The notes under the pieces: generated by a model | Told to the model about the DNA's origin: nothing | Database searches by the model: none | What the model saw: the letters and a program-made list of their open reading frames with translations, nothing else | Virus genome (UHGV): UHGV-1978634 | Strand: one strand, 5' to 3' | DNA: 39,633 bases | Source: a virus | Shown here: positions 12,258 through 39,633 of the stretch, one piece after another | Layout: every line of letters begins with the position of its first letter | How positions within the stretch are numbered: the stretch's first letter is position 1 | Program-made: the position numbers and the translations under genes

Positions 12258-14681
12258 ATGACAGACATTACAGCCAATGTTGTAATTGGGATGCCTTCGC
12301 AACTCTTCACTATGGCGCGTTCTTTTAAAGCCGTAGCCAATGGAAAAATTTATATCGGTAAAATTGACACTGACCCGGTAAATACTGAAAACCAGATTCA
12401 GGTTTATGTGGAGAACGAAGACGGTTCTCACGTTCCTGTTGCACAGCCAATCGTTATCAATGCTGCTGGATATCCGGTGCATAACGGACAGATTGCCAAA
12501 TTCGTTACTGTGCAAGGTCATTCTATGTCTGTTTATGATGCGTACGGTGTGCAGCAGTTCTATTTTCCGAATGTGCTGAAGTATGACCCCGATCAATTGC
12601 GTCAGCAAATTGAAAGTAATGGGGGCGCATCAATAATAGGGACGGCAACTGGCACTACTGTTCAGGAAGAGTTAAATAAGTTAAAGAGTCTTCCTTTTCT
12701 GTATCCAGAGCTCTATTTTGATGGGAATGAGGTGGATCATACATTAGCGTTTAAAAAAATGTATGCAGACGCAAAGATATTGAAAAAATCGGTTGTTGCT
12801 ACAGGGAATTATGTTCTCACGGCAAGTTCCACAGACCCGATTGAAATAACAGTTAGCTCAGATATGAGTGATGCAACAGTGACGTGCTCTACATATCAGG
12901 GTGGAGATGTCTGGTCTTTGGACAAGACACTATTTGAAATCGCTCAGGATGAAAATGATGTCACTGAAATGTTTTCCGCAGTAAGTTACCTGAAAGGGCA
13001 GACGAGCTTCCCTGTTACCGGATTACAGGGAACTATTATTCTTGATTCTACAGATGTTGTGATGGTGAGAAATAATGGTGGTAGTCTGTCAGACCAACTA
13101 AAAACAGAAGTTCACGAGATTGACGCTGACGGTAACTTGCGTTATCTGAACTATTATATTTATAACGATCGACCTGTTGTTAAATATAAACCTTTTACAA
13201 ATAGCCTGTATTTTAAAATGCCAAAGGTTGTTCTGGATGGGGCAAGAATCAATAATGCTGTTCTTTGCTCAAGGAATAACACCATAATACATGGAAATAC
13301 AGTTGATGTAATAAATAATGGTAGCACAAGGCAGGTAGTAAACTTCCAACGATGCTCAAGAGTTTATGTTAACAACCTATACATGAGTCCTGTTGGATAT
13401 CTTGATGGTACTGCACCCTCCATCCCCGCGGGAAGAAATGAGGCAGCTTATTTTATCCTCACTGAAAAATGTTCTGATGTAACAATGGATAATTGCTGCA
13501 GCATCAATGGATGGGGCGGCTTTGATGGTAATAAATCACGGAATATACATATTAATCGATGTGACCTCCCTGGTGTTGGCGGTCACTACAGCATGTCTGA
13601 TATTTACCTCAATGAGTCGACAGTTCGTTATCATTGCGCGGCGCAAGGTTGGGGAGAATGGGTGGCCACTAACTGTAAACATCTTGGCATGTACGGGAAA
13701 AATACTCTTGAATTCTTCTCTGTGAAGCGAGATTACATGTCATCATGGGATGGTGAGATTCGAGTTGAAGGTTTACGAGTCATGTTACCGTCTACGTGTG
13801 AAGAGTATTTCTTGGTAAGCAGTCTTGAACCAAAATATAATGGTAATTTTATCGCCACAAGCCCGGATGTAGTGATAAAGGACGTGTCTCTTGATCTGAC
13901 TAATGCCTCTGGACTTGTGGAATTTAGAATATTGGATCTCGGCGTGTCAGGCGGAAATAATTATGAGCAATATATGATTCTGCCAAACAACCACTATATT
14001 GAAAATGTAAAGGTTGTAGGGACACGTTCTTATGATTCCAATTTATCCGTCAGCGTTGTCTACAATCAAAGGAACTACTCAAGATTAACGGCCGCTCAGT
14101 TTTCAACTATCGTAGGTAGAGGGAAATACAAGCTTACAGTGAAGGATGTGGATCTCGCTCGGCTTGGGAATACTACGCAGTTATCAAACCCAAGGTATAA
14201 CGTGCAAGCGTTTAAGTTTACCACTTACCGCGTTCCACAGGATGTGAACGTCGATAACAGCTACAATTGCGTCCCTTACATTTCAGCATGGGATGACATG
14301 CTGGTGCGTATAACCAATCAAGACATGGCCATGGGGTATATCGACGGCGCGGTTGCTCGCACTTCCGCTTCATACAACAGGATCTTTTTTAACAACTGTC
14401 GAATCTATGGATTAGGTTGGGGCAGTAGCGGTGGGCAACGAACAGGTATATTTGACTTTACAAGTTGTGTATTTGGATGGTTATCTGCAATCACTGGAGT
14501 TGCGGAGACATCTAATGCAACTATAGGCCTGCTTTTTGGCGCGAATGAGTCCGGTAATAGTGCTACTGGTAAATATTCCGGATGCGCAATTCTGGTCCAG
14601 TCAAACGCTTTCCAGTTGGCTGATTCAACATTCCGTACAAGAGTCCAGACCAACTATACAAACAACGGGGTATACCAATAA
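12258..14681 (+). CDS. Tailspike protein: conserved P22-family head-binding N-terminus plus a long divergent receptor-binding part
   Basis: N-terminus [50 protein letters not shown] is the conserved tailspike head-binding domain; 807 aa total, longer than Sf6/P22/HK620 tailspikes as I recall them. Confidence 0.9.
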
Positions 14682-14710
14682 ACTCAAGGGGGCTGAACCC
14701 CCTTGAGTTT
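14681..14710. terminator. Bidirectional hairpin between convergent tailspike and gtr operon
   Basis: Perfect 12-bp stem aactcaaggggg / cccccttgagtt with 5-nt loop. Confidence 0.65.
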
Positions 14711-14714
14711 ATGA

Positions 14715-16136
14715 CTACTTGAATGTAACGATATAAATCCCAGAATCTTTTTGCAGTTTGTAATTCCTGCCATCTTCAATCAATTCTACATTCTTACCAT
14801 CTGATTTAGCAATTTCTGCATTCATTCCTGAGTACCAGAAATAAGCATTCATAAACCATTTAGAAGTCAGGTTAAATTTCACAATATTTTTTAGGATTGG
14901 ATAATCAAGATAGATCTGCTTAAGATAATGAGGAAGGTTAGGCTCATTTCTTATATCAATCTTAACTAACCCAGAACGTTTATCCATGCTGTCAATAGAT
15001 GCAATAACTGATTCTAACTTCCTGATTTTATATTCAGACTCGTATTTGAAAGCATTCACATAAATAGATGCCATTGCTACCGAAATGAATAAATAAAATG
15101 CAGTTATCAAATATACAGCATATCTTACCTTAGAATCTTTTATCTTTAGCAAAGGTGTAAGTGCGACCATTAGAAATGCAGGGAAAGACATCAGCACTCT
15201 GGATGATATTATAGCATTGCTAAACATTGCGTAGGGAATAAACAACAATAAGAATGAAATTGGCAATGAGACGGCAAATAACAATGAATCAAGGTATCTT
15301 CCACTTGTGAAAGATTTAACTGCTTGCCACAGACACACTGCGTAAGAAATAACAACGAGCACTGAAACAACTGCTAGTTGAGTCGTCGATAACGAAGTTA
15401 ACAATGAAAATATATAGTTAATATTAGATAAGAACTCGCTAATTCCATCACGATTTAAGTGAACTATTGTCGTGTGGTTGTCAACGTATACATCTGTAGA
15501 AAGCAATGTAGTTGTAGTCTGAACAATGGCAAAGGTGACAACGAATATCACAACGCTGCTTAACACGTATCTCATATTTTCCTTTTGCGTTTTACTATTA
15601 AGCAAGTTGTTTAAAGACTGAAGAATGACAAGGCAGACAAATACAGCAAACGAAGTTTGATAGAAAAAGCTTGCTGCAGTGAGAAGCAGCAGTCTGAAAA
15701 TAAAATTGAATTTATGTTCATACCTAACGGCCGCCAGCATAGCCAAAGAAAACGATGCCGACATTCCAATAACATCAATGTGGTATGACATGTTTTCAAT
15801 ATAAAATGGAGAACAAATTAAAACACATATCGTGATTGTTTTTGCAATCCATTGCTTGCCAAACACAGATTCAGCAAAGTAATTGCAGGCTACTATCATG
15901 ATAACAAATGAAACAACAAGGTTCAGTTGATAAACATCTGGCGAGATCAACTTTCCTGATGAATTCAAAAGGATGTAATACAACTCGGTAAGAAATCGAC
16001 CTTGAGAAGCTAGCCCGATATATCCGTATGAATATCTTGCTACATCATCCACAAAAGGAGGCATATAAAAGAATGGAAGGAAGAAGCAAGCGACTATAAG
16101 TATCGCTGGCATTTCATATCGCGTTAATTTAAACAT
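14715..16136 (-). CDS. Serotype-specific O-antigen glycosyltransferase (GtrC-type polytopic membrane protein)
   Basis: 473-aa highly hydrophobic multi-TM protein, AT-rich, immediately downstream of gtrB in the same operon. Confidence 0.75.
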
Positions 16137-17052
16137 CTTTAGACCCCTTAATTATATATCTTGGTCTTGATTTTACTTCGACATATATTCTGCCAATGTA
16201 TTCCCCAAGCACACCAATACCTATCAACTGAATTCCCCCCAGGAAAAGAATTGAAACCAATAGCGATGGATAACCACGGACAGCATTACCGAACACCAAT
16301 GTGTCGAAAATCATCCACACCCCGTAAAGGAACGAGAGTCCCGCAACAAGTAGACCGATGTAAGTCCACACGCGCAAGGGGAAGGTCGAGAAACTTGTAA
16401 TCCCCTCAAGCGCCAGGTTCCAGAGCTTCCAGCCATTGAACTTTGTGCTTCCGGCAACGCGTTCAGCACGGATGTATTCAACAACATCCGTCTTACCGCC
16501 AACCCAAGATAAAACGCCTTTCATAAACAGGTTACGCTCTGGCAGTAGTTTGATATTTTCTACCATCTCTCGTGACATAAGACGGAAGTCACCAACGTTC
16601 TCTTCAATCTGCGGATTACTAATTTTGTTGTGAAGTTTATAAAACCACTCAGCAGTTTTACGCTTTAACCTACCATCAGTTGATCTGTCAGAGCGCTTTG
16701 CCAGCACCATATCAGCACCTGCCTGCCACTTTTCAATAAGATGAGGAATGACCTCAATCGGGTCTTGCAGGTCAACATCAATTGGAATCACGGCATCGCC
16801 AGTTGCATGGTCTAACCCTGCAAACAATGCTGGTTCTTTACCAAAGTTGCGTGTAAATGACAGCGGAACAACTAGCGGATCAGAAACAGCCAGAGCATTA
16901 ATAATTGACTCCGTAGCGTCTTTGCTTCCGTCATTTATGAAAACAATTTCCACTTCATATGGCTTCAACTCTTCGAATTCACGTACCGTTTTATAAAAAA
17001 TTGGTATCGCTTCTTCTTCATTGAAGACAGGAACTACAAGAGATATCTTCAT
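16129..17052 (-). CDS. gtrB: Bactoprenol glucosyltransferase GtrB (GT2 family)
   Basis: 307 aa; N-terminus [17 protein letters not shown].., DVDLQDP motif, two C-terminal TM helices. Confidence 0.9.
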
Positions 17053-17411
17053 TTCGCATCCCTAAAGACAATGAACTTTGAATAGACGAAACCGCACACC
17101 AGGCTGATGGCGGAAAAGGTGACGAGAGTGATAATTGGAGGAAGTGAACATCTATCAGCAGCCCATCCAACAGTTGCACTCAGTGTTCCCATGAACCCGA
17201 CAAATAACATGTAGCGCATCGTTGTAGTCGATGCTTTGAATGTGAATTTTGCATTCGCGAAGAAGCTAAAACTCACAGCCACAACGAAACCTGCGAAGTT
17301 TGCCAGAGCCTGATTGGTATGCGCGGCATAGATACATACACCAAAAACCACCCAGTGTATAAGTGTGTTCAGCACACCAATCGAGGTGTACTTTGCAAAT
17401 AGCTTTAACAT
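17049..17411 (-). CDS. gtrA: GtrA flippase-like small membrane protein
   Basis: 120-aa four-TM protein directly upstream of and overlapping gtrB. Confidence 0.85.
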
Positions 17412-17560: not shown

Positions 17561-18718
17561 TCACTCCACCTTTTCATCAAGCCAGTCTGCCCACCACTGC
17601 ATCATTTCTCTGCGCTTATCGAGATACTGAGCATGGTTGTAAATTCCGCGTACAGATCCGCCGTTGGCATGTGCCAGTTGTACTTCAATAGCATCAGCAG
17701 GCCATTCGTGCTCGTTCATAATCGTGCTGAATTCATGCCTGAATCCGTGACCGCTTTCCAGACCTTCATAGCCGATTTGTTTGATCACAAGCAGTACCGC
17801 GTTCTCGCAGATTGGCTTCTTCTTATCGTTGCGCCCGGCAAAAACAAACTCTGATACTGGTTTGGTGATTGAGCTTAGCGTAGTGAGAAGTTCAACCACC
17901 TGGTCCGACATCGGGACAACATGAATCTTGCGTCCCTTCATCACACTGGCGTCGATAGTGATAATCCTGTTTTCAAAATCGACGTTCTTCCATTGCATGG
18001 AACGAAGCTCTTTCGTTCTTAGGGCTGTGTAGCGTAAAACTTTGGTCGCAATGAGCGATACGATACTTCCTGAAAATGTTGCCAGTGCTTTGTTGAATGC
18101 AGGGATCTGGTCTGCAGGAAGAAACGGGAAGTTCTTCTTGCGGTATCCCTTCATGGCGTCAGCAAGGTCAGGTGCCGGGTTATATTTAGCCCTTCCGGTG
18201 ACAATAGCGTAACGGAAAACCTCGCCGCATCTTCTGCGTGCTTTGTTGGCTCGCTCCATTGCACCGCGATCTTCAAATCTGCGGATTACTTCCAGAAGTT
18301 GCATCGGCTCAATATCCTGAATTTCAAGGCTGCCGATGATAGGTAAAATGTCGTCATCAAACATTTTGGCAAGTTCAGTTGCATAGCCTACTGACCAGAC
18401 TTGCTTCTTGTGCTCGTACCATTCCTTGTAAATCGCACTAAAGGAATTGTTGTTAGACGAAGCCTTTTTCGCCTTTACCGGATCGATGCCAACCGAGATG
18501 TCTTTCCTCGCAGTCCATGCTTTATCCCTTGCCTCCTGCAAAGTCATAAGCGGATATTTTCCGACGGTCAGGATTTTCTCCTTACCGTCAATCTTGTAGC
18601 GAAGCTGCCATACCTTTTTCCCTGACACAGGGACATAAAGGTACAGGCCATTACCATCGAGAAGGCGGTATGGTTTTTCTTTCGGCTTTGCTGCTTCAAT
18701 CTGCTTAACGGTGAGCAT
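17561..18718 (-). CDS. int: Tyrosine integrase (P4-type)
   Basis: ORF 17561..18754; first ATG with typical N-terminus MLTVKQIEAAKPKEKPYRLLDGNGLYLYV.. at 18718; C-terminal catalytic region ..HGFRH.. Confidence 0.9.
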   Translation of the reverse strand: MLTVKQIEAAKPKEKPYRLLDGNGLYLYVPVSGKKVWQLRYKIDGKEKILTVGKYPLMTLQEARDKAWTARKDISVGIDPVKAKKASSNNNSFSAIYKEWYEHKKQVWSVGYATELAKMFDDDILPIIGSLEIQDIEPMQLLEVIRRFEDRGAMERANKARRRCGEVFRYAIVTGRAKYNPAPDLADAMKGYRKKNFPFLPADQIPAFNKALATFSGSIVSLIATKVLRYTALRTKELRSMQWKNVDFENRIITIDASVMKGRKIHVVPMSDQVVELLTTLSSITKPVSEFVFAGRNDKKKPICENAVLLVIKQIGYEGLESGHGFRHEFSTIMNEHEWPADAIEVQLAHANGGSVRGIYNHAQYLDKRREMMQWWADWLDEKVE

Positions 18719-18967
18719 GGGTAAAAATCCGGTGGGTAAAATTATTTTATCCACTTTTTACCCGTCATGGAGTGCGGCTGTCAACGATCTGACGCGAACC
18801 ATGACGAACTGTAAATCTACGGAAGGCTTGATATTCAGGGGATTTTGCGGACTGGTACGGATGGGAGCGAACTGATAAATGGTGTCCCCTGCAGACATCT
18901 ACTTGAAGCGGCAGGGGATTGATTGGAATGGTGTTTTTTAGATGTGAAAAATATTTTACCCGCTATT
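18719..18967. other. Candidate attP between xis and int, with tRNA-Arg(argW)-like 3-prime-end core at 18880-18894
   Basis: tggtgtcccctgcag is the reverse complement of ctgcaggggacacca, which I recall as the 3-prime end of E. coli argW; flanked by inverted tcccctgc / gcagggga and by five TTTTACCC/GGGTAAAA motifs. Confidence 0.5.
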
Positions 18968-19393: not shown

Positions 19394-19537
19394 TTATCAT
19401 CTCCATAAAACAAAACTCGCCGTAGCGAGTTCAGATAAAAGAAATCCCCGCGAGTGCGAGGATTGTTATTCATTGCCGATATTCACCTTTATCGCGAATA
19501 CCTTTACCGGTTTATCGCCGAAGTGCGGATGCTTCGT

Positions 19538-19726
19538 TTATATCAATCCCACGCATTCTGACCGACGAATAAATAACTCTTCTCCGTTATGTATTGCGAC
19601 ATAGCCGTAAACAGTTTTATGCATCACATCGAACTCATCCCATACGGAAACTCCACACTCTGCTAATGAGCAATTCAAATAATTCCCCGGTTGCTTGCCG
19701 GTGTTATTAATGAGGCGAATCCTCAT
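19538..19726 (-). CDS. Hypothetical protein (62 aa)
   Basis: ORF track; protein-like composition; weak RBS. Confidence 0.35.
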   Translation of the reverse strand: MRIRLINNTGKQPGNYLNCSLAECGVSVWDEFDVMHKTVYGYVAIHNGEELFIRRSECVGLI

Positions 19727-19963
19727 ATCTTATTCACTTTTGGCTGCAAGGTGTAGCCACCACGGTAAGCTCCATCAGCATGGGCGAATTCATATACCTG
19801 TACACTATTACGATGCAGAAATAAAACATGCATATTTTTGATAGGCTATGTTAATGATTTTTAAATATTTATTGTCTTATCAAGAATGTCTGTAATACCC
19901 CTATTAACCCGTCACATATAAACAATTTATAAAAATTTTCTTAACGCTATCACATTATTTAAT

Positions 19964-20263
19964 TTACCTTTCCCGATAGGTATATAGTTCATCATGTGCA
20001 ACCTTGCGATTGCGATGTATTCCCATTTCTTTCTCTACGCGTATTGCTGCATTGCGTAATGTTCTTGAGGTCGCGACTTCTCTTGAACTTACATTTTTTA
20101 ATGTAGCCGATTTAATGCAACGTTGAATTTGCCTCTGGATATACATCCGCTGGTCTGTCTGAGTCTCCTGACGATAATCCATCAGCACATCTTGCCAGCG
20201 AGCCGCAGCTCTGCGCCAAAGCCCTTTATTTTCAAGTTCTTCAGCTTTTTTATCTTTAACCAT
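19964..20263 (-). CDS. PerC-like transcriptional activator (moron-like, AT-rich)
   Basis: ORF 19964..20278; ATG at 20263 with AGGAG RBS; motif KAEELENKGLWRRAAARWQDVL resembles the PerC family. Confidence 0.5.
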   Translation of the reverse strand: MVKDKKAEELENKGLWRRAAARWQDVLMDYRQETQTDQRMYIQRQIQRCIKSATLKNVSSREVATSRTLRNAAIRVEKEMGIHRNRKVAHDELYTYRER

Positions 20264-20289
20264 ACAGTCTCCTATCACACTAAATATTA

Positions 20290-20325
20290 AATAATAACTA
20301 TCAGGTTTATCAGATAGTTATTATT
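20290..20325. repeat. Perfect 13-bp inverted repeat (aataataactatc / gatagttattatt, 10-bp spacer) upstream of the PerC-like gene
   Basis: Read directly from sequence. Confidence 0.6.
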
Positions 20326-20689
20326 ACAGTTAAGTATAGGGGCGGTAATAATAACCTAAGATGGTGGTGAAATTCAAGCCAGATGCCGTTATGCAACTCA
20401 ACAGAAATAAGCTGTTGCTTTTTATCTCACTATTCATTTGTCTCATTTCCAGCTATACTCATTGTTCACACAACACAAAAGGCATAGAAATGACAGTGTA
20501 TGGCATATCAGAAAACAGTATTGTTCACTTACGTGAAAAAAATGGATAATGGCTTGTGTTGCACATTATTAAAAATGGCGACATTATATATCACCTCAAA
20601 AATACAGACAAAGAAATGAACGTCACACTTCAGGATATTATCCCCAATAAATAATCAAATGAGCGTGGCGCACGATGCCCCGCGCTATT

Positions 20690-20779
20690 CTACTTATCAC
20701 CCCAGCGGCAAATCGAAAACACAACCAGTGCCACCGCTATTGCAACTCCTACCGTTGCGAATGCTTCAGGCCAGCTCAT
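20690..20779 (-). CDS. Small hydrophobic peptide (29 aa), translationally coupled to the upstream gene
   Basis: MSWPEAFATVGVAIAVALVVFSICRWGDK; AGGAGG RBS; ATGA overlap with the stop of the 217-aa gene. Confidence 0.35.
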   Translation of the reverse strand: MSWPEAFATVGVAIAVALVVFSICRWGDK

Positions 20780-21429
20780 TGATTCACCTCCTGCGGCGGT
20801 TCTGGTAGATGCATCCAGTGGGTTACACCGTCAATTGGTTCATCGTCGTCGTACTCCAATGCGGCTATATAGAACCCGTCACGACGAGAATAAGAAATCC
20901 CGGACATTACAATGCCATCCGAAACAACTATAATGTCACCCGTTTCTTCCGGCATTCGCTCACTACAGCTTATCCAACTATCCGGAGTTACCGGAGAGTT
21001 GCCGGGTTCTTTAATGTGCAAGCGAGGCTCACCATCTTTTGGTTCAGGCCACTGGCGCTCCATGTTGATCTTCAATTTATCTTCCATAGCAGCGGTAATT
21101 TCAGCATCGCTGATGCCAGCACGGCGCTGTGCATCCCACAACAGGAAATGCATATCAGCCCACTCGCTGAGATCGTCTGGTTCGGCTGCGGCTTCCAGAG
21201 CCTCTTTTGAGAGGTGTTTCAGTGGACCAATGGGGCCAACGCAGCCAAATGTGGAGTCAGACCATTTGGCATGCTCGTGGCGAATCAGTTCGCGTTCCAG
21301 TGATGCCAGTGCAATTCGTGCCAGTTCCTTAAGATTTTCGCTATATGGTGAAGTATTATCACGGTTGATTACGTGATTAGCTGTATCTATGAGAACTTGC
21401 TTTTGTTCTTCTCTGGTCATAGTGGTCAT
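20776..21429 (-). CDS. Phage early-region protein with DUF551-like C-terminus
   Basis: 217 aa; C-terminal ..THWMHLPEPP.. typical of DUF551 proteins. Confidence 0.55.
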   Translation of the reverse strand: MTTMTREEQKQVLIDTANHVINRDNTSPYSENLKELARIALASLERELIRHEHAKWSDSTFGCVGPIGPLKHLSKEALEAAAEPDDLSEWADMHFLLWDAQRRAGISDAEITAAMEDKLKINMERQWPEPKDGEPRLHIKEPGNSPVTPDSWISCSERMPEETGDIIVVSDGIVMSGISYSRRDGFYIAALEYDDDEPIDGVTHWMHLPEPPQEVNQ

Positions 21430-27385: not shown

Positions 27386-27775
27386 TTAGTCAGCGAAGGT
27401 TAAGACGAGAATTACCTTAATGATGTCTGCTACAACAGACACGGCCATAGATAAACCAAAGACGATCCAAGCCATAGAGATGTCTTCACTACCATCGTAT
27501 AGCGTTCCGTAATCACTGGTGTAAGGCGTAAATGTCGCGCCTTGATACAACAGGTATAAGCTTGAACCATAGAGGATAAATGCAGATATCCCTTGTATTG
27601 CTATGACCACTAGAATCATGAAACGAGCAGATCTATGCGCCCAAGCCTGGCTTATTTTTTCTGATAGAGATTTCGCAATAAAAGCATGCGCTAAGCCGTA
27701 AATTGTTGAGATTGCCAACATCCCCAAAAAGCTTGCTATAGCGGTTCCAACCATAATCGCCCCTTGCGTGATCAA
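27386..27775 (-). CDS. Polytopic membrane protein co-transcribed with cI (candidate exclusion / abortive-infection factor)
   Basis: 129 aa, 3-4 predicted TM helices; start overlaps the cI stop by 4 nt. Confidence 0.7.
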   Translation of the reverse strand: MITQGAIMVGTAIASFLGMLAISTIYGLAHAFIAKSLSEKISQAWAHRSARFMILVVIAIQGISAFILYGSSLYLLYQGATFTPYTSDYGTLYDGSEDISMAWIVFGLSMAVSVVADIIKVILVLTFAD

Positions 27776-28488
27776 ACCAGCCTTAGTTTTGTCTCAATTG
27801 CAACGCCTATAATCTTGCAGTTTCCATTGATTGGCACGAGAGGCCATGCAGGATTAAGTCCCTTGAGGTATTTATTTCCGCCGTCGATTATCAGCTTCTT
27901 GAATGTTGCTTCGTTAGAGTCAGAATGTTTTGCTATGACCAAGCTGCCGTTGATCGCCTCCCTTCCGGTATCGAAAAGAACGAATGTTCCCTCTGGAATG
28001 CTTAACCCAACCGGTGCCGTCATTGAATCACCTTCCACTTTAAGCCAGAACGCATTACCTTGAATATGCGCGTCAGACTCAAGCCAAACATCTATGTCTT
28101 TAATGGTGTATGGTTCGCATGCTTCACACCACGAGCCAGCCTGGATACTGCTTAACACCGGATACCTCTTTCCTGCTCTGTATTCCCCTGCATACCTTAC
28201 GTTGGCATCGCTCTTAAGGCTTTCTGCCTGTTCTGCAACCTTGGCAGCAATTGACTGGCTAAAATCAGCAATTGAGACTTGCAACAATCGTGCAAAACCA
28301 GATGCAACCTCAACGTTTAGCGCGTTTCTGCCATTAAGATAATGCCCTACCGCTCCTTGGGTGATACCCAGTTCATCAGCGATTGAGTATTGGGTTATTC
28401 CCAATTCTTTCTTTTTTGACTCATACAAAGCCTTAAGCCGCTTAGCGTCTTCGAGCTGTTCTGTCGTCAGTGATTTTTTATTTTCCAT
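27772..28488 (-). CDS. cI: CI-type repressor (HTH plus LexA-like S24 peptidase domain)
   Basis: 238 aa; ..LGITQYSIADELGITQGAVGHYLNG.. HTH; C-terminal ..VEGDSM.. autocleavage domain. Confidence 0.9.
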   Translation of the reverse strand: MENKKSLTTEQLEDAKRLKALYESKKKELGITQYSIADELGITQGAVGHYLNGRNALNVEVASGFARLLQVSIADFSQSIAAKVAEQAESLKSDANVRYAGEYRAGKRYPVLSSIQAGSWCEACEPYTIKDIDVWLESDAHIQGNAFWLKVEGDSMTAPVGLSIPEGTFVLFDTGREAINGSLVIAKHSDSNEATFKKLIIDGGNKYLKGLNPAWPLVPINGNCKIIGVAIETKLRLV

Positions 28489-35093: not shown

Positions 35094-35168
35094 TTTTTAT
35101 TTGGGTCAGTCGTATAAAGGTCATTACGGAAGGCTGTTAACCTTCTTATCGTGGTTCGAGTCCACGCT
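35094..35168 (+). tRNA. tRNA-Asn (anticodon GTT)
   Basis: Manual cloverleaf: acceptor gggtcag/ctgtccc (one mismatch), anticodon stem gaagg/ccttc, loop ctGTTaa, T-arm cgtgg-ttcgagt-ccacg, 3-prime gcca. Confidence 0.7.
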
Positions 35169-35173
35169 GTCCC

Positions 35174-35249
35174 GCCAAATATGCTGGTTTAGCTCCAATG
35201 GTAGAGCAGTCGCCTTGTAAGCGAATGGGTAGCGGTTCAAGTCCGTTAA
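35174..35249 (+). tRNA. tRNA-Thr (anticodon TGT)
   Basis: Manual cloverleaf: acceptor gctggtt/aaccagc, D-arm gctc-caatggta-gagc, anticodon loop ctTGTaa, T-arm agcgg-ttcaagt-ccgtt, 3-prime acca. Confidence 0.8.
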
Positions 35250-35500
35250 CCAGCACCATAACTGAGCCGTAGCCACTGGCTATCCTGAATTCATCAGTGA
35301 TAGTTACGCTGCGGCCTTCTACACATGACCTTCGTGAAAGCGGGTGGCAAGAGGTTGCGCTAACAACCTCCTGCCGTTTTGCCCGTGCATATCGGTCACG
35401 AACAAATCTGATTGCTAAACACAGTAGCCTGGATTTGTTCTATCAGTAATCGACCTTATTCCTAATTAAATAGAGCAAATCCCCTTATTGGGGGTAAGAC

Positions 35501-38832: not shown

Positions 38833-39633
38833 CCTCGATTAATCCTATCTTTGAACCGTTCATTGAGGCGCATCGCTACAAAGTCGCCAAAGGCGGTCGA
38901 GGTAGCGGTAAGTCATGGGCAATTGCGAGGCTGCTTGTTGAAGCGGCGCGTCGGCAGCCTGTGCGTATTCTCTGCGCTCGTGAACTGCAAAACAGTATCA
39001 GCGATTCGGTAATCCGGTTGCTTGAAGACACCATCGAGCGGGAAGGGTATTCGGCTGAGTTTGAAATTCAGCGTTCAATGATTCGTCATCTCGGAACGAA
39101 CGCTGAATTCATGTTCTACGGCATCAAAAACAACCCGACGAAGATTAAATCGCTCGAAGGCATTGATATCTGCTGGGTGGAAGAAGCGGAAGCGGTAACG
39201 AAGGAATCATGGGATATCCTGATTCCAACCATCCGCAAGCCATTTTCCGAAATATGGGTGAGCTTCAACCCGAAAAACATCCTCGACGATACCTATCAGC
39301 GATTCGTCGTAAATCCTCCCGATGACATTTGCCTGCTGACGGTGAACTACACCGACAACCCGCACTTTCCTGAAGTCCTCCGTCTGGAGATGGAAGAGTG
39401 TAAACGCAGAAATCCGACACTGTATCGTCACATCTGGCTTGGTGAGCCAGTAAGCGCAAGTGATATGGCAATCATCAAACGTGAATGGCTTGAAGCTGCA
39501 ACTGATGCGCACAAGAAACTCGGATGGAAAGCGAAAGGCGCTGTTGTTTCTGCGCATGACCCGTCAGATACAGGGCCAGATGCTAAAGGTTACGCATCGC
39601 GCCACGGTTCGGTAGTTAAGCGCATTGCCGAAG
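38829..39633 (+). CDS. Terminase large subunit, N-terminal portion (runs off the window end)
   Basis: ATG overlaps the small-terminase stop (ATGA); Walker A KGGRGSGKS; open to the last base. Confidence 0.9.
   Translation, partial: MTSINPIFEPFIEAHRYKVAKGGRGSGKSWAIARLLVEAARRQPVRILCARELQNSISDSVIRLLEDTIEREGYSAEFEIQRSMIRHLGTNAEFMFYGIKNNPTKIKSLEGIDICWVEEAEAVTKESWDILIPTIRKPFSEIWVSFNPKNILDDTYQRFVVNPPDDICLLTVNYTDNPHFPEVLRLEMEECKRRNPTLYRHIWLGEPVSASDMAIIKREWLEAATDAHKKLGWKAKGAVVSAHDPSDTGPDAKGYASRHGSVVKRIAE

What the first reader, a model, noticed from the sequence alone, without database searches (positions are those of the whole stretch)
19964..20325. PerC-like regulator as an AT-rich moron with a perfect 13-bp inverted repeat upstream
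A PerC-family activator inside a temperate phage could affect host gene expression in lysogens. The palindrome aataataactatc-N10-gatagttattatt sits immediately upstream of its RBS and could be an operator or a processing site.
Basis: partly seen in the sequence, partly recalled or inferred. Interest (0 to 1): 0.45.

Follow-up and report, generated by a model that had tools for sequence, protein, structure and literature searches.

The report
PerC-like gene cassette with upstream palindrome
A temperate P22-like phage carries a small, AT-rich, mobile cassette with a distant relative of the PerC/Pch virulence regulators, and a perfect 13-bp inverted repeat sits just upstream of its ribosome-binding site; the gene is an ordinary new member of a known family, and what the repeat does is still untested.

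Summary
Both observations hold. A 99-aa ORF on the minus strand (ATG 20263, stop 19964) matches Pfam PerC (E 7e-15) and keeps every invariant family residue. A perfect 13-bp inverted repeat (20290-20302 / 20313-20325, 10-nt spacer) ends 16 nt upstream of the AGGAGA ribosome-binding site. About 0.06 such repeats are expected per window by chance. A third copy of its core lies at 20345-20355, over the -10 of the best promoter-like site.

The window is an Sf6/HF4s-like temperate phage. perC sits in a 694-bp cassette (19717-20410, 37% GC against 46%). The cassette recurs nearly unchanged in P22-like and lambda-like prophages and in P1-like phage-plasmids. It is missing from the closest sequenced phages, from 5,426 complete E. 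coli genomes and from PLSDB.

The protein is only 32% identical to PchA, and it resembles EPEC PerC only over 27 N-terminal residues.

The palindrome is found only in this cassette. Its arms are invariant in six haplotypes, but divergence is too low for that to be significant. Tests for a thermometer, for masking of the ribosome-binding site and for a terminator were negative. My best guess is a DNA-level operator array for a host factor or for PerC itself. A leader RNA hairpin and a neutral repeat remain live rivals. This is a new member of a known kind, of modest interest.

The parts
19964..20263 (-). perC-like CDS, 99 aa plus stop, ATG at 20263
   Evidence: ORF list. Pfam PerC E 7.2e-15. 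PHROG 994 E 4.7e-29. All invariant family residues are kept. The exact protein is on record in 279 blocks of public assemblies.
20268..20273 (-). Shine-Dalgarno sequence AGGAGA, 4 nt before the ATG
   Evidence: Read directly from the sequence. The GGAG core (20272-20269) is invariant in all 31 related loci. The first change downstream of it is at 20268 (A to G in lineage B).
20290..20325 (.). Perfect 13-bp inverted repeat: arms 20290-20302 and 20313-20325, 10-nt spacer
   Evidence: The arms are invariant in 6 haplotypes from 31 loci. The one change is in the spacer, A20310T. As RNA the hairpin folds at -12.3 kcal/mol, z -5.8.
20345..20355 (.). Third copy of the repeat core (GTAATAATAAC on the + strand); overlaps the -10 of the promoter-like site
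   Evidence: Three copies of TAATAATAAC (two exact, one with a single mismatch) lie within 67 bp. G20355A occurs in lineage B and in L023.
20348..20377 (-). Promoter-like site P2: TTGAAT, 18-nt spacer, TATTAT. The inferred transcription start is near 20341.
   Evidence: Consensus scan, 9 of 12 matches, not above the shuffle expectation. It lies inside the cassette shared by both lineages. The -10 is invariant, one change falls at -35 position 5, and four of 18 spacer positions differ. No transcription-start data exist, so this is an inference.
19717..20410 (-). The mobile perC cassette: leader, perC and a 247-bp AT-rich tail
   Evidence: This 694-bp block is 93.8% identical between the window lineage and the P1-like phage-plasmid lineage, and homology stops at both ends. 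HF4s homology stops at 19531. GC is 36.8%.
19717..19963 (-). AT-rich tail downstream of perC (31.6% GC), with no recognised terminator
   Evidence: Composition. No terminator-like site on the minus strand here. No Rfam match at the gathering score; at the permissive E-value setting only chance-level sub-threshold matches.
20411..20648 (.). 238-bp AT-rich spacer, not part of the cassette. It holds most of a disrupted small + strand ORF (20490-20654).
   Evidence: The spacer is absent from lineage B. It is 82% identical to the spacer between a DUF551 gene and hokD in E. coli lambdoid prophages. The promoter-like site at 20583-20611 lies inside it and is therefore discounted.
20662..20686 (.). 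GC-rich hairpin followed by a T-rich tract. It resembles a terminator and closes the upstream early-left genes.
   Evidence: Read from the sequence; fold of -18.2 kcal/mol, z -1.6. It is conserved in both lineages, with changes that keep a stem. The scan tool did not flag it.

Best explanation
What is shown:
- A diverged PerC/Pch-family gene sits in a self-contained 694-bp AT-rich cassette (19717-20410).
- The cassette lies in the mosaic early-left ('ea') region of an Sf6/HF4s-like temperate phage, between an Ea22-like gene and xis/int.
- It moves as a unit among P22-like prophages, lambda-like prophages and P1-like phage-plasmids.

What is inferred:
- perC is transcribed from the cassette's own sigma-70-type promoter (-35 at 20377-20372, -10 at 20353-20348). 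During lytic growth it is also read through from pL.
- The three clustered copies of the TAATAATAAC core form a DNA-level operator array. One copy lies over the -10. Two form the perfect 13-N10-13 palindrome at about +17 to +52.
- A dimeric or tetrameric DNA-binding protein supplied in trans binds this array. That protein would be a host regulator or PerC itself, because the cassette carries no other gene and sits in phages with unrelated repressors.
- This binding sets how much PerC a lysogen makes.
- PerC then acts, like Pch, on AT-rich, H-NS-bound host or prophage promoters.

I rate the gene identity and the cassette at about 0.9. The operator mechanism is about 0.35, and that is the confidence given for this explanation as a whole.
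For: Gene:
- Pfam PerC, PHROG 994, and all invariant residues kept in alignments of 18 and 61 homologues.

Temperate phage:
-.

Cassette:
- The same block occurs next to five different backbones or attachment sites.
- It also occurs on roughly 91-kb phd/doc-humD-theta contigs.
- The boundaries are 19717 and 20410.
- It is absent from HF4s, N7 and Sf6.

Palindrome:
- It is perfect and rare by chance.
- A third core copy lies 20 nt away, over the -10.
- The stretch from the -10 to the ATG is the least diverged part of the cassette: 3 changes in 92 nt, against 16 in 300 in the CDS, 7 in 55 upstream and 17 in 247 downstream.
- The arms are invariant in 6 haplotypes.

Why the binding factor must come in trans:
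- The cassette sits in phages with different immunity modules.

Precedent:
- The pch genes are controlled by the host regulators LrhA, Lrp and LeuO (PMC4456613).
- Pch binds AT-rich DNA within H-NS-bound regions (PMC4764244).

RNA-level alternatives tested and not supported:
- Predicted accessibility of the ribosome-binding site hardly changes from 25 to 42 C.
- Extension of the stem into the ribosome-binding site is no better than with shuffled flanks; 39% of shuffles fold at least as well.
- The intrinsic-terminator scan does not flag it.
- No Rfam family reaches its gathering score; the permissive scan gave only sub-threshold matches, including psRNA14 at 20254-20329 (20 bits against a gathering score of 60, E 2.5).
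Against: - No binding protein is identified, and there are no transcription-start or expression data.
- The promoter-like site scores 9 of 12, and such sites are no more frequent here than in shuffled sequence.
- Arms of 13 bp with 23 bp between their centres are unusual for a simple dimer operator.
- The core is a low-complexity (TAA)n-like sequence, so random models overstate the significance of the third copy.
- Zero changes in 26 arm positions is expected about 20% of the time at the cassette's roughly 6% divergence (my arithmetic).
- The palindrome is absent upstream of every other PerC-family gene examined, so it is not a family-wide control element.
- The AF2 model shows no recognisable DNA-binding fold. 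The N-terminal helices look TPR/MIT-like. This weakens the idea that PerC binds the site itself.
Confidence: 0.35

Rival explanations
1. Leader RNA hairpin. The palindrome is transcribed as part of the perC 5' leader, whether from P2 or from pL read-through. It folds into a 13-bp A-U-rich stem-loop followed by the U-rich run UAAUAUUU. It then acts in cis as a weak attenuator, or as a stability or processing determinant. Transcripts that start upstream could instead pair the third copy with the 5' arm.
For: The position between the promoter-like site and the ribosome-binding site means any upstream start transcribes it. The hairpin folds at -12.3 kcal/mol, z -5.8. An 11-bp alternative pairing, 20345-20355 with 20317-20327, folds at -8.6 kcal/mol. 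The only change inside the 36 bp is in the loop. The one flank variant, TATAC to TATGC in L096, would turn an A-U pair into G-U in the predicted extended stem.
Against: The stem has only 2-3 G-C pairs, and the terminator scan does not flag it. The hairpin ends 16 nt before the ribosome-binding site. The predicted extension into the ribosome-binding site is matched by 39% of flank shuffles. Accessibility of the ribosome-binding site is nearly independent of temperature. The 13-bp stem is below the roughly two helical turns usually needed by RNase III (general knowledge). There is no covariation and no Rfam family at the gathering score. From P2 the third copy is not transcribed, so it would go unexplained.
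Confidence: 0.25
2. Neutral structure. The palindrome and the third copy are by-products of template-switch or inverted-duplication events in low-complexity (TAA)n-like AT-rich DNA. They are carried along with the cassette and have no role in perC expression.
For: The arms are largely (AAT)n. Conservation of the arms is not significantly greater than that of the rest of the cassette. Only two closely related lineages exist to compare. There is no equivalent upstream of other PerC genes. The phi456-type homologue has a single TAATAACTAT about 50 bp upstream of its ATG. That fits an ancestral single copy later duplicated in inverted orientation.
Against: A perfect 13-bp repeat plus an 11-bp repeat sharing one arm is very unlikely under composition-matched models. 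It has stayed perfect in two lineages about 6% apart, and it lies in the least diverged 92 nt of the cassette.
Confidence: 0.25
3. Insulator or terminator for upstream transcription. The hairpin stops or pauses transcripts from the early-left operon before they enter perC.
For: It has the same orientation as the pL operon, and the 3' flank is U-rich.
Against: A better, GC-rich terminator-like hairpin already lies at 20662-20686, directly after the upstream genes. It is conserved in both lineages. The palindrome lies downstream of the cassette's own promoter-like site. It fails the terminator criteria.
Confidence: 0.05

Closest known systems
PchA/PchB/PchC (group 1 PerC homologues on lambdoid prophages of E. 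coli O157:H7)
   Same: They are small (about 100 aa) helical proteins of Pfam PF06069, encoded as accessory genes on temperate prophages in AT-rich surroundings. The conserved N-terminal signature is shared. Known Pch proteins relieve H-NS silencing at LEE1 and bind AT-rich DNA (PMC4764244). Host factors regulate them (PMC4456613).
   Different: Identity to PchA (Sakai ECs_1091) is only 32% over 82 aa. pchA lies in the late/lysis region of Sp4, not next to int/xis. The pchA upstream region has no comparable palindrome. Whether this protein activates LEE or anything else is unknown. Whether the host strains carry a LEE was not examined.
PerC of EPEC (perABC operon, pEAF/pMAR2 plasmid)
   Same: It is the founding member of the family. 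The N-terminal motif is shared: DKKA-x-LE-x-KG-x-RRAA-x-RW, 52% identity over 27 aa.
   Different: Similarity is confined to those 27 residues. EPEC perC is the third gene of a plasmid operon behind an AraC-type regulator. The gene here is a stand-alone cassette.
PerC-family genes on E. coli IncI/IncK plasmids, on the P1-like phage phi456 and on plasmid p108_MLI108-3
   Same: These are the nearest relatives outside the subfamily, at 57-66% identity. They are also single accessory genes on mobile elements.
   Different: Their neighbours differ: a divergent HTH gene, or a MarR gene plus an inverse autotransporter. Their upstream regions are not homologous and have no palindrome. phi456 has one TAATAACTAT half-site.
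Phage morons (the lambda bor and lom type, as defined by Hendrix and colleagues; from my own knowledge)
   Same: It is a discrete extra gene present or absent between otherwise similar phage genomes. Its base composition deviates from the host phage. It is found in unrelated backbones.
   Different: The classic definition includes an own promoter and a downstream terminator. Here the promoter is only consensus-level, and no downstream terminator was found.

Membership tests
PerC/Pch family (Pfam PF06069) | Profile match above the curated threshold over most of the domain | tested here: met
   55.5 bits against a cut-off of 22.6, E 7.2e-15, profile positions 1-83 of 90. PHROG 994 E 4.7e-29.
PerC/Pch family (Pfam PF06069) | Conserved residues: D4, A7, E8, L10, E11, G14, L15, R17, R18, A19, A20, R22, W23, C49, M80, G81 | tested here: met
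   All are present in the window protein. They are invariant or at least 90% conserved in alignments of 18 and 61 family members.
PerC/Pch family (Pfam PF06069) | Small (about 90-105 aa) all-helical protein encoded on a mobile element | tested here: met
   99 aa. The AF2 model has five helices and mean pLDDT 80. It is encoded on a temperate phage.
PerC/Pch family (Pfam PF06069) | Close similarity to a functionally characterised member (PerC, PchA-C) | tested here: not met
   32% identity to PchA over 82 aa. Only a 27-residue match to EPEC PerC. It is therefore a family member, not an orthologue of a characterised activator. PchD and PchE were not retrieved.
PerC/Pch family (Pfam PF06069) | Activates ler/LEE1 or relieves H-NS silencing | not testable with these tools
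   This needs reporter or ChIP experiments. The mechanism is known only for Pch (PMC4764244).
Phage moron | Discrete insertion, present or absent between related phages and shared by unrelated ones | tested here: met
   HF4s homology stops at 19531 and resumes beyond 20950. The 694-bp block is shared at 93.8% with P1-like phage-plasmid contigs. The block is present in prophages with at least two different integrase types, at the dsdC, torS and ybhC sites.
Phage moron | Base composition differs from the surrounding genome | tested here: met
   36.8% GC against 46.1%; profile.
Phage moron | Own promoter | tested here: inconclusive
   TTGAAT-18-TATTAT lies inside the cassette. Substitutions between the lineages spare the -10. 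The number of consensus hits in the region is not above the shuffle expectation.
Phage moron | Own terminator downstream | tested here: not met
   No terminator-like site on the minus strand between 19730 and 19963.
Phage moron | Expressed from the repressed prophage | not testable with these tools
   No transcriptome is available for a lysogen carrying this cassette.
Transcription-factor operator | Dyad symmetry beyond chance, next to or overlapping a promoter, with repeated sites | tested here: inconclusive
   The symmetry and the third copy are shown. The promoter itself is only predicted.
Transcription-factor operator | A cognate binding protein | not testable with these tools
   There is no regulator gene in the cassette. 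No match to a known binding site could be established.
Intrinsic (Rho-independent) terminator | G+C-rich stem followed directly by a U-tract | tested here: not met
   The scan does not report it. The stem has 11 A-U pairs out of 13, and the tail UAAUAUUU is interrupted.
RNA thermometer or SD-masking leader | The Shine-Dalgarno sequence is paired in a structure that melts in the physiological range and exceeds chance | tested here: not met
   The unpaired probability of the Shine-Dalgarno sequence is 0.27-0.36 from 25 to 42 C. Shuffled flanks give equal stability, mean -18.6 against -19.1 kcal/mol.

The most novel reading that the evidence does not exclude
The three clustered TAATAATAAC cores, made up of the palindrome and the copy over the -10, would be an autoregulatory binding array for this PerC-like protein itself. 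That would be the first defined DNA recognition sequence for a PerC/Pch-family protein. Their mode of DNA recognition is unknown, and they have no recognisable DNA-binding fold.
Probability: 0.1. Interest if true: 0.6.

Novelty: new member of a known kind. Interest (0 to 1): 0.3.

Why it matters
PerC/Pch proteins are prophage- and plasmid-borne switches that turn on the LEE type III secretion island and other H-NS-silenced genes in pathogenic E. coli. A diverged member that travels as a 694-bp cassette between P22-like, lambda-like and P1-like elements shows how such regulators spread. It could change the phenotype of lysogens.

The palindrome gives a concrete and cheaply testable handle on how such a moron is controlled. 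If PerC itself bound it, that would reveal how this poorly understood family recognises DNA. As it stands, nothing here is unexpected for a temperate enterobacterial phage.

Tried and rejected
- **Phage-repressor operator: rejected.** The cassette sits in phages with unrelated immunity modules. The half-site does not recur in the window's immunity region beyond a chance 2-mismatch hit.
- **Upstream promoter-like site TTGTCT-17-TATAAT (20611-20583): discounted.** It lies in a 238-bp segment that is absent from lineage B. That segment is homologous to a + strand small ORF of lambdoid prophages.
- **RNA thermometer or masking of the ribosome-binding site: not supported**.
- **Intrinsic terminator: not supported**.
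- **Known RNA family: none at the gathering score**. The permissive scan gave only chance-level sub-threshold matches.
- **A hairpin or palindrome as a general feature of PerC genes: not seen.** Ten diverse loci and pchA were checked.
- **Wider sequence sampling mostly failed:**
  - An exact perC 5' pattern in JGI metagenomes found nothing.
  - A short-arm palindrome pattern in viral contigs returned only chance-level matches.
  - The cassette has no match in 5,426 complete E. coli genomes or in PLSDB.
- **Naming Pch groups through cluster names failed.** All are labelled 'PerC family'.
- **Matches to Fur, PhoP, ArcA, LexA and IHF consensus sequences** were checked by eye, using consensus sequences from memory. 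All were weak or partial, and I do not claim any.

Full report
**Observation**

The region holds one substantial ORF, on the minus strand (19964-20278 from a GTG). AGGAGA at 20273-20268, followed four bases later by ATG 20263, makes a 99-aa product the likely one. It matches Pfam PerC (PF06069) at E 7.2e-15, 55.5 bits against a threshold of 22.6. It matches PHROG 994 at E 4.7e-29. It has no NCBIfam hit.

In alignments with 17 and 60 family members it keeps every invariant or near-invariant position. These are D4, A7, E8, L10, E11, G14, L15, R17, R18, A19, A20, R22, W23, C49, M80 and G81.

The inverted repeat is exactly as described. AATAATAACTATC (20290-20302) and GATAGTTATTATT (20313-20325) are 100% complementary with 10 nt between them. 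It ends 16 nt from the ribosome-binding site.

Perfect repeats of at least 13 bp with a loop of 30 nt or less are expected 0.06 times per composition-matched simulation of the window. In the local AT-rich 951 bp the expectation is 0.0007. The only other one in the window is a 15-bp repeat between the convergent tailspike and gtrC genes.

It forms an 11-bp perfect inverted repeat with the nearer arm.

**Context**

The window is a P22-type (Lederbergvirus) temperate phage. Over its structural genes and the gtr-int-xis region it is 96-97% identical to phages HF4s, N7 and Sf6. It has:
- gtrCBA at 14715-17411;
- a tyrosine integrase at 17561-18754;
- an excisionase;
- a CI-like repressor at 27772-28488;
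- CII.

perC lies in the mosaic early-left region, in the same orientation as that operon. It sits between an Ea22-like dATP/dGTP-pyrophosphohydrolase+DUF551 gene (20776-21429) and small ORFs that precede xis.

Homology to HF4s stops at 19531 and resumes only in short patches beyond 20950. The closest sequenced phages therefore lack the gene. In the phage collection, one record has a homologue at tblastn E below 1e-3. It is the P1-like phage phi456, at 57% identity.

**A mobile cassette**

The identical protein is on record in 279 blocks of public assemblies. The ten places fetched are prophages with different integrases and insertion sites, next to dsdC, torS and ybhC. They also include a prophage where perC lies next to the terminase gene, and a remnant beside Mu-like baseplate genes. 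All share window 19479-20817 at 99% or more.

A second lineage has 92% protein identity (P0002). It lies on contigs of about 91 kb that carry phd/doc, a HumD-like peptidase and a DNA polymerase III theta homologue, which marks them as P1-like phage-plasmids.

The two lineages share exactly window 19717-20410, which is 694 bp at 93.8% identity. This block contains perC, 147 bp upstream and 247 bp downstream. Its GC content is 36.8%, against 46.1% for the window. The CDS is 42.7% and the flanks are 32-35%.

The 238 bp between 20411 and 20648 are not part of the cassette. They are missing in lineage B. They are 82% identical to a segment of E. coli lambdoid prophages that lies between a DUF551 gene and hokD. 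That segment encodes a 55-57-aa ORF on the other strand, which is interrupted here by a stop codon. The strong promoter-like site at 20611-20583 lies in that segment, so I discount it.

The cassette has no match in 5,426 complete E. coli genomes, in PLSDB or in JGI metagenome contigs. It is real but uncommon.

**The protein**

The family is small. A single-sequence phmmer search with this protein found 55 representatives at E below 1e-3 among 1.84 billion 50%-identity clusters, and no representative above 61% identity. A profile search returned 94 further PerC-family proteins from Escherichia, Salmonella, Citrobacter, Klebsiella, Enterobacter and Erwiniaceae.

Identity to PchA of O157:H7 Sakai is 32% over 82 residues. 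With EPEC PerC, only the first 27 residues align, at 52%.

What Pch is known to do is displace H-NS/StpA at LEE1 and other AT-rich loci (PMC4764244). Group 2 and 3 homologues (PchD, PchE) do not activate LEE, and PchE represses csgD (PMC6265319). Family membership therefore does not predict the target. I file this protein as a new, diverged member of the family, not as an orthologue of an activator.

**The palindrome: comparative evidence**

In 31 loci with this perC there are six upstream haplotypes. The 26 arm positions never vary. The single change inside the 36 bp is in the spacer, at 20310.

Changes between the two lineages, by segment:

| Segment | Changes |
|---|---|
| Upstream of the third copy | 7 of 55 |
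| Third copy plus spacer | 1 of 30 |
| Palindrome | 1 of 36 |
| Leader | 1 of 26 |
| CDS | 16 of 300 |
| Tail | 17 of 247 |

The 92 nt from the -10 to the ATG are the best-conserved part. At about 6% background divergence, though, zero changes in 26 positions has a probability near 0.2 (my arithmetic). This is suggestive only.

No comparable repeat lies upstream of more distant PerC genes or of pchA. The phi456-type gene has a single TAATAACTAT about 50 bp before its ATG. All five exact occurrences of the palindrome in IMG/VR are in perC loci.

**The palindrome: mechanism**

The best promoter-like site inside the cassette is TTGAAT-18-TATTAT (20377-20348). Its -10 is the third repeat copy. Changes between the lineages spare the -10, hit -35 position 5 once, and hit the spacer four times. 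A start near 20341 would put the palindrome at +17 to +52. Promoter-like matches are no more frequent here than in shuffles, so this is an inference.

RNA-level ideas were tested.
- The hairpin alone is stable for its composition: -12.3 kcal/mol, z -5.8.
- In the minimum-energy fold the stem extends and pairs half of the ribosome-binding site. That extension is matched or beaten by 39% of flank shuffles.
- Predicted accessibility of the ribosome-binding site barely changes between 25 and 42 C.
- The terminator scan does not flag it.
- No Rfam family reaches its gathering score; the permissive scan gave only sub-threshold matches.
- A GC-rich terminator-like hairpin already closes the upstream genes at 20662-20686.

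The cassette occurs in phages with unrelated repressors, so any protein that recognises the repeat must be host-encoded or PerC itself. Host control of pch genes by LrhA, Lrp and LeuO is documented (PMC4456613).

Three core copies lie within 67 bp, one of them on the -10. On balance they fit a DNA-level operator array slightly better than an RNA element. I give the operator about 0.35, a leader RNA hairpin about 0.25, a neutral repeat about 0.25 and an insulator or terminator about 0.05.

**Verdict**

PerC-family membership, the temperate phage and the moron-like cassette are supported. The regulatory role in lysogens and the function of the palindrome are untested.

This is a new member of a known kind. 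The cassette's spread across three phage types and its triple repeat give it modest interest. The base-pair-swap reporter experiment would settle the mechanism.

Noticed in passing
window 20490-20654 (+): A small ORF is homologous to a 55-57-aa ORF of E. coli lambdoid prophages, where it lies between a DUF551 gene and hokD. Here an in-frame TAA at 20547-20549 interrupts it; relatives have GAA. Its function is unknown.
   Followed up: partly
window 20690-20779 (-): A 29-aa hydrophobic ORF (MSWPEAFATVGVAIAVALVVFSICRWGDK) overlaps the end of the Ea22-like/DUF551 gene. It is conserved in every context examined. A GC-rich hairpin (20662-20686) and a T-rich tract follow it and could terminate transcription from both directions.
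   Followed up: partly
window 35103-35258 (+): Two phage-borne tRNA genes, tRNA-Asn (GTT) and tRNA-Thr (TGT), lie just upstream of the ORFs I took from position to be the lysis genes (these were not checked).
   Followed up: no
window 14678-14712: A perfect 15-bp inverted repeat with a 5-nt loop lies between the convergent tailspike and gtrC genes. It is most likely a bidirectional terminator.
   Followed up: no
window 39065-39109: A perfect 12-bp inverted repeat with a 21-nt spacer lies near the right end of the window.
   Followed up: no
window 19538-19833 (-): A 36-aa ORF (19723-19833) overlaps, by ATGA, the start of a 62-aa ORF (19538-19726; PHROG 10916, function unknown). The 62-aa ORF occurs at 85-88% nucleotide identity on P1-like plasmids of about 92 kb that lack perC.
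   Followed up: partly
L002 3940-3965 (phage phi456) and L099/L100: The phi456/IncI-IncK-type PerC homologue (57% identity) has a single exact TAATAACTAT about 50 bp upstream of its ATG. This could be a relic of the ancestral single arm of the window's palindrome.
   Followed up: partly
window 19964-20263 (protein model m757aa1ccef66): The AlphaFold model of the PerC-like protein is all-helical. Its first 55 or so residues resemble TPR/MIT-type helical hairpins, and no helix-turn-helix fold appears. Some PF06069 proteins are named 'ANR family' by NCBI.
   Followed up: partly
L003-L012, L089-L098: The cassette is on record in about 330 blocks of draft assemblies and metagenomes. It is absent from all 5,426 complete RefSeq E. 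coli genomes and from PLSDB.
   Followed up: partly
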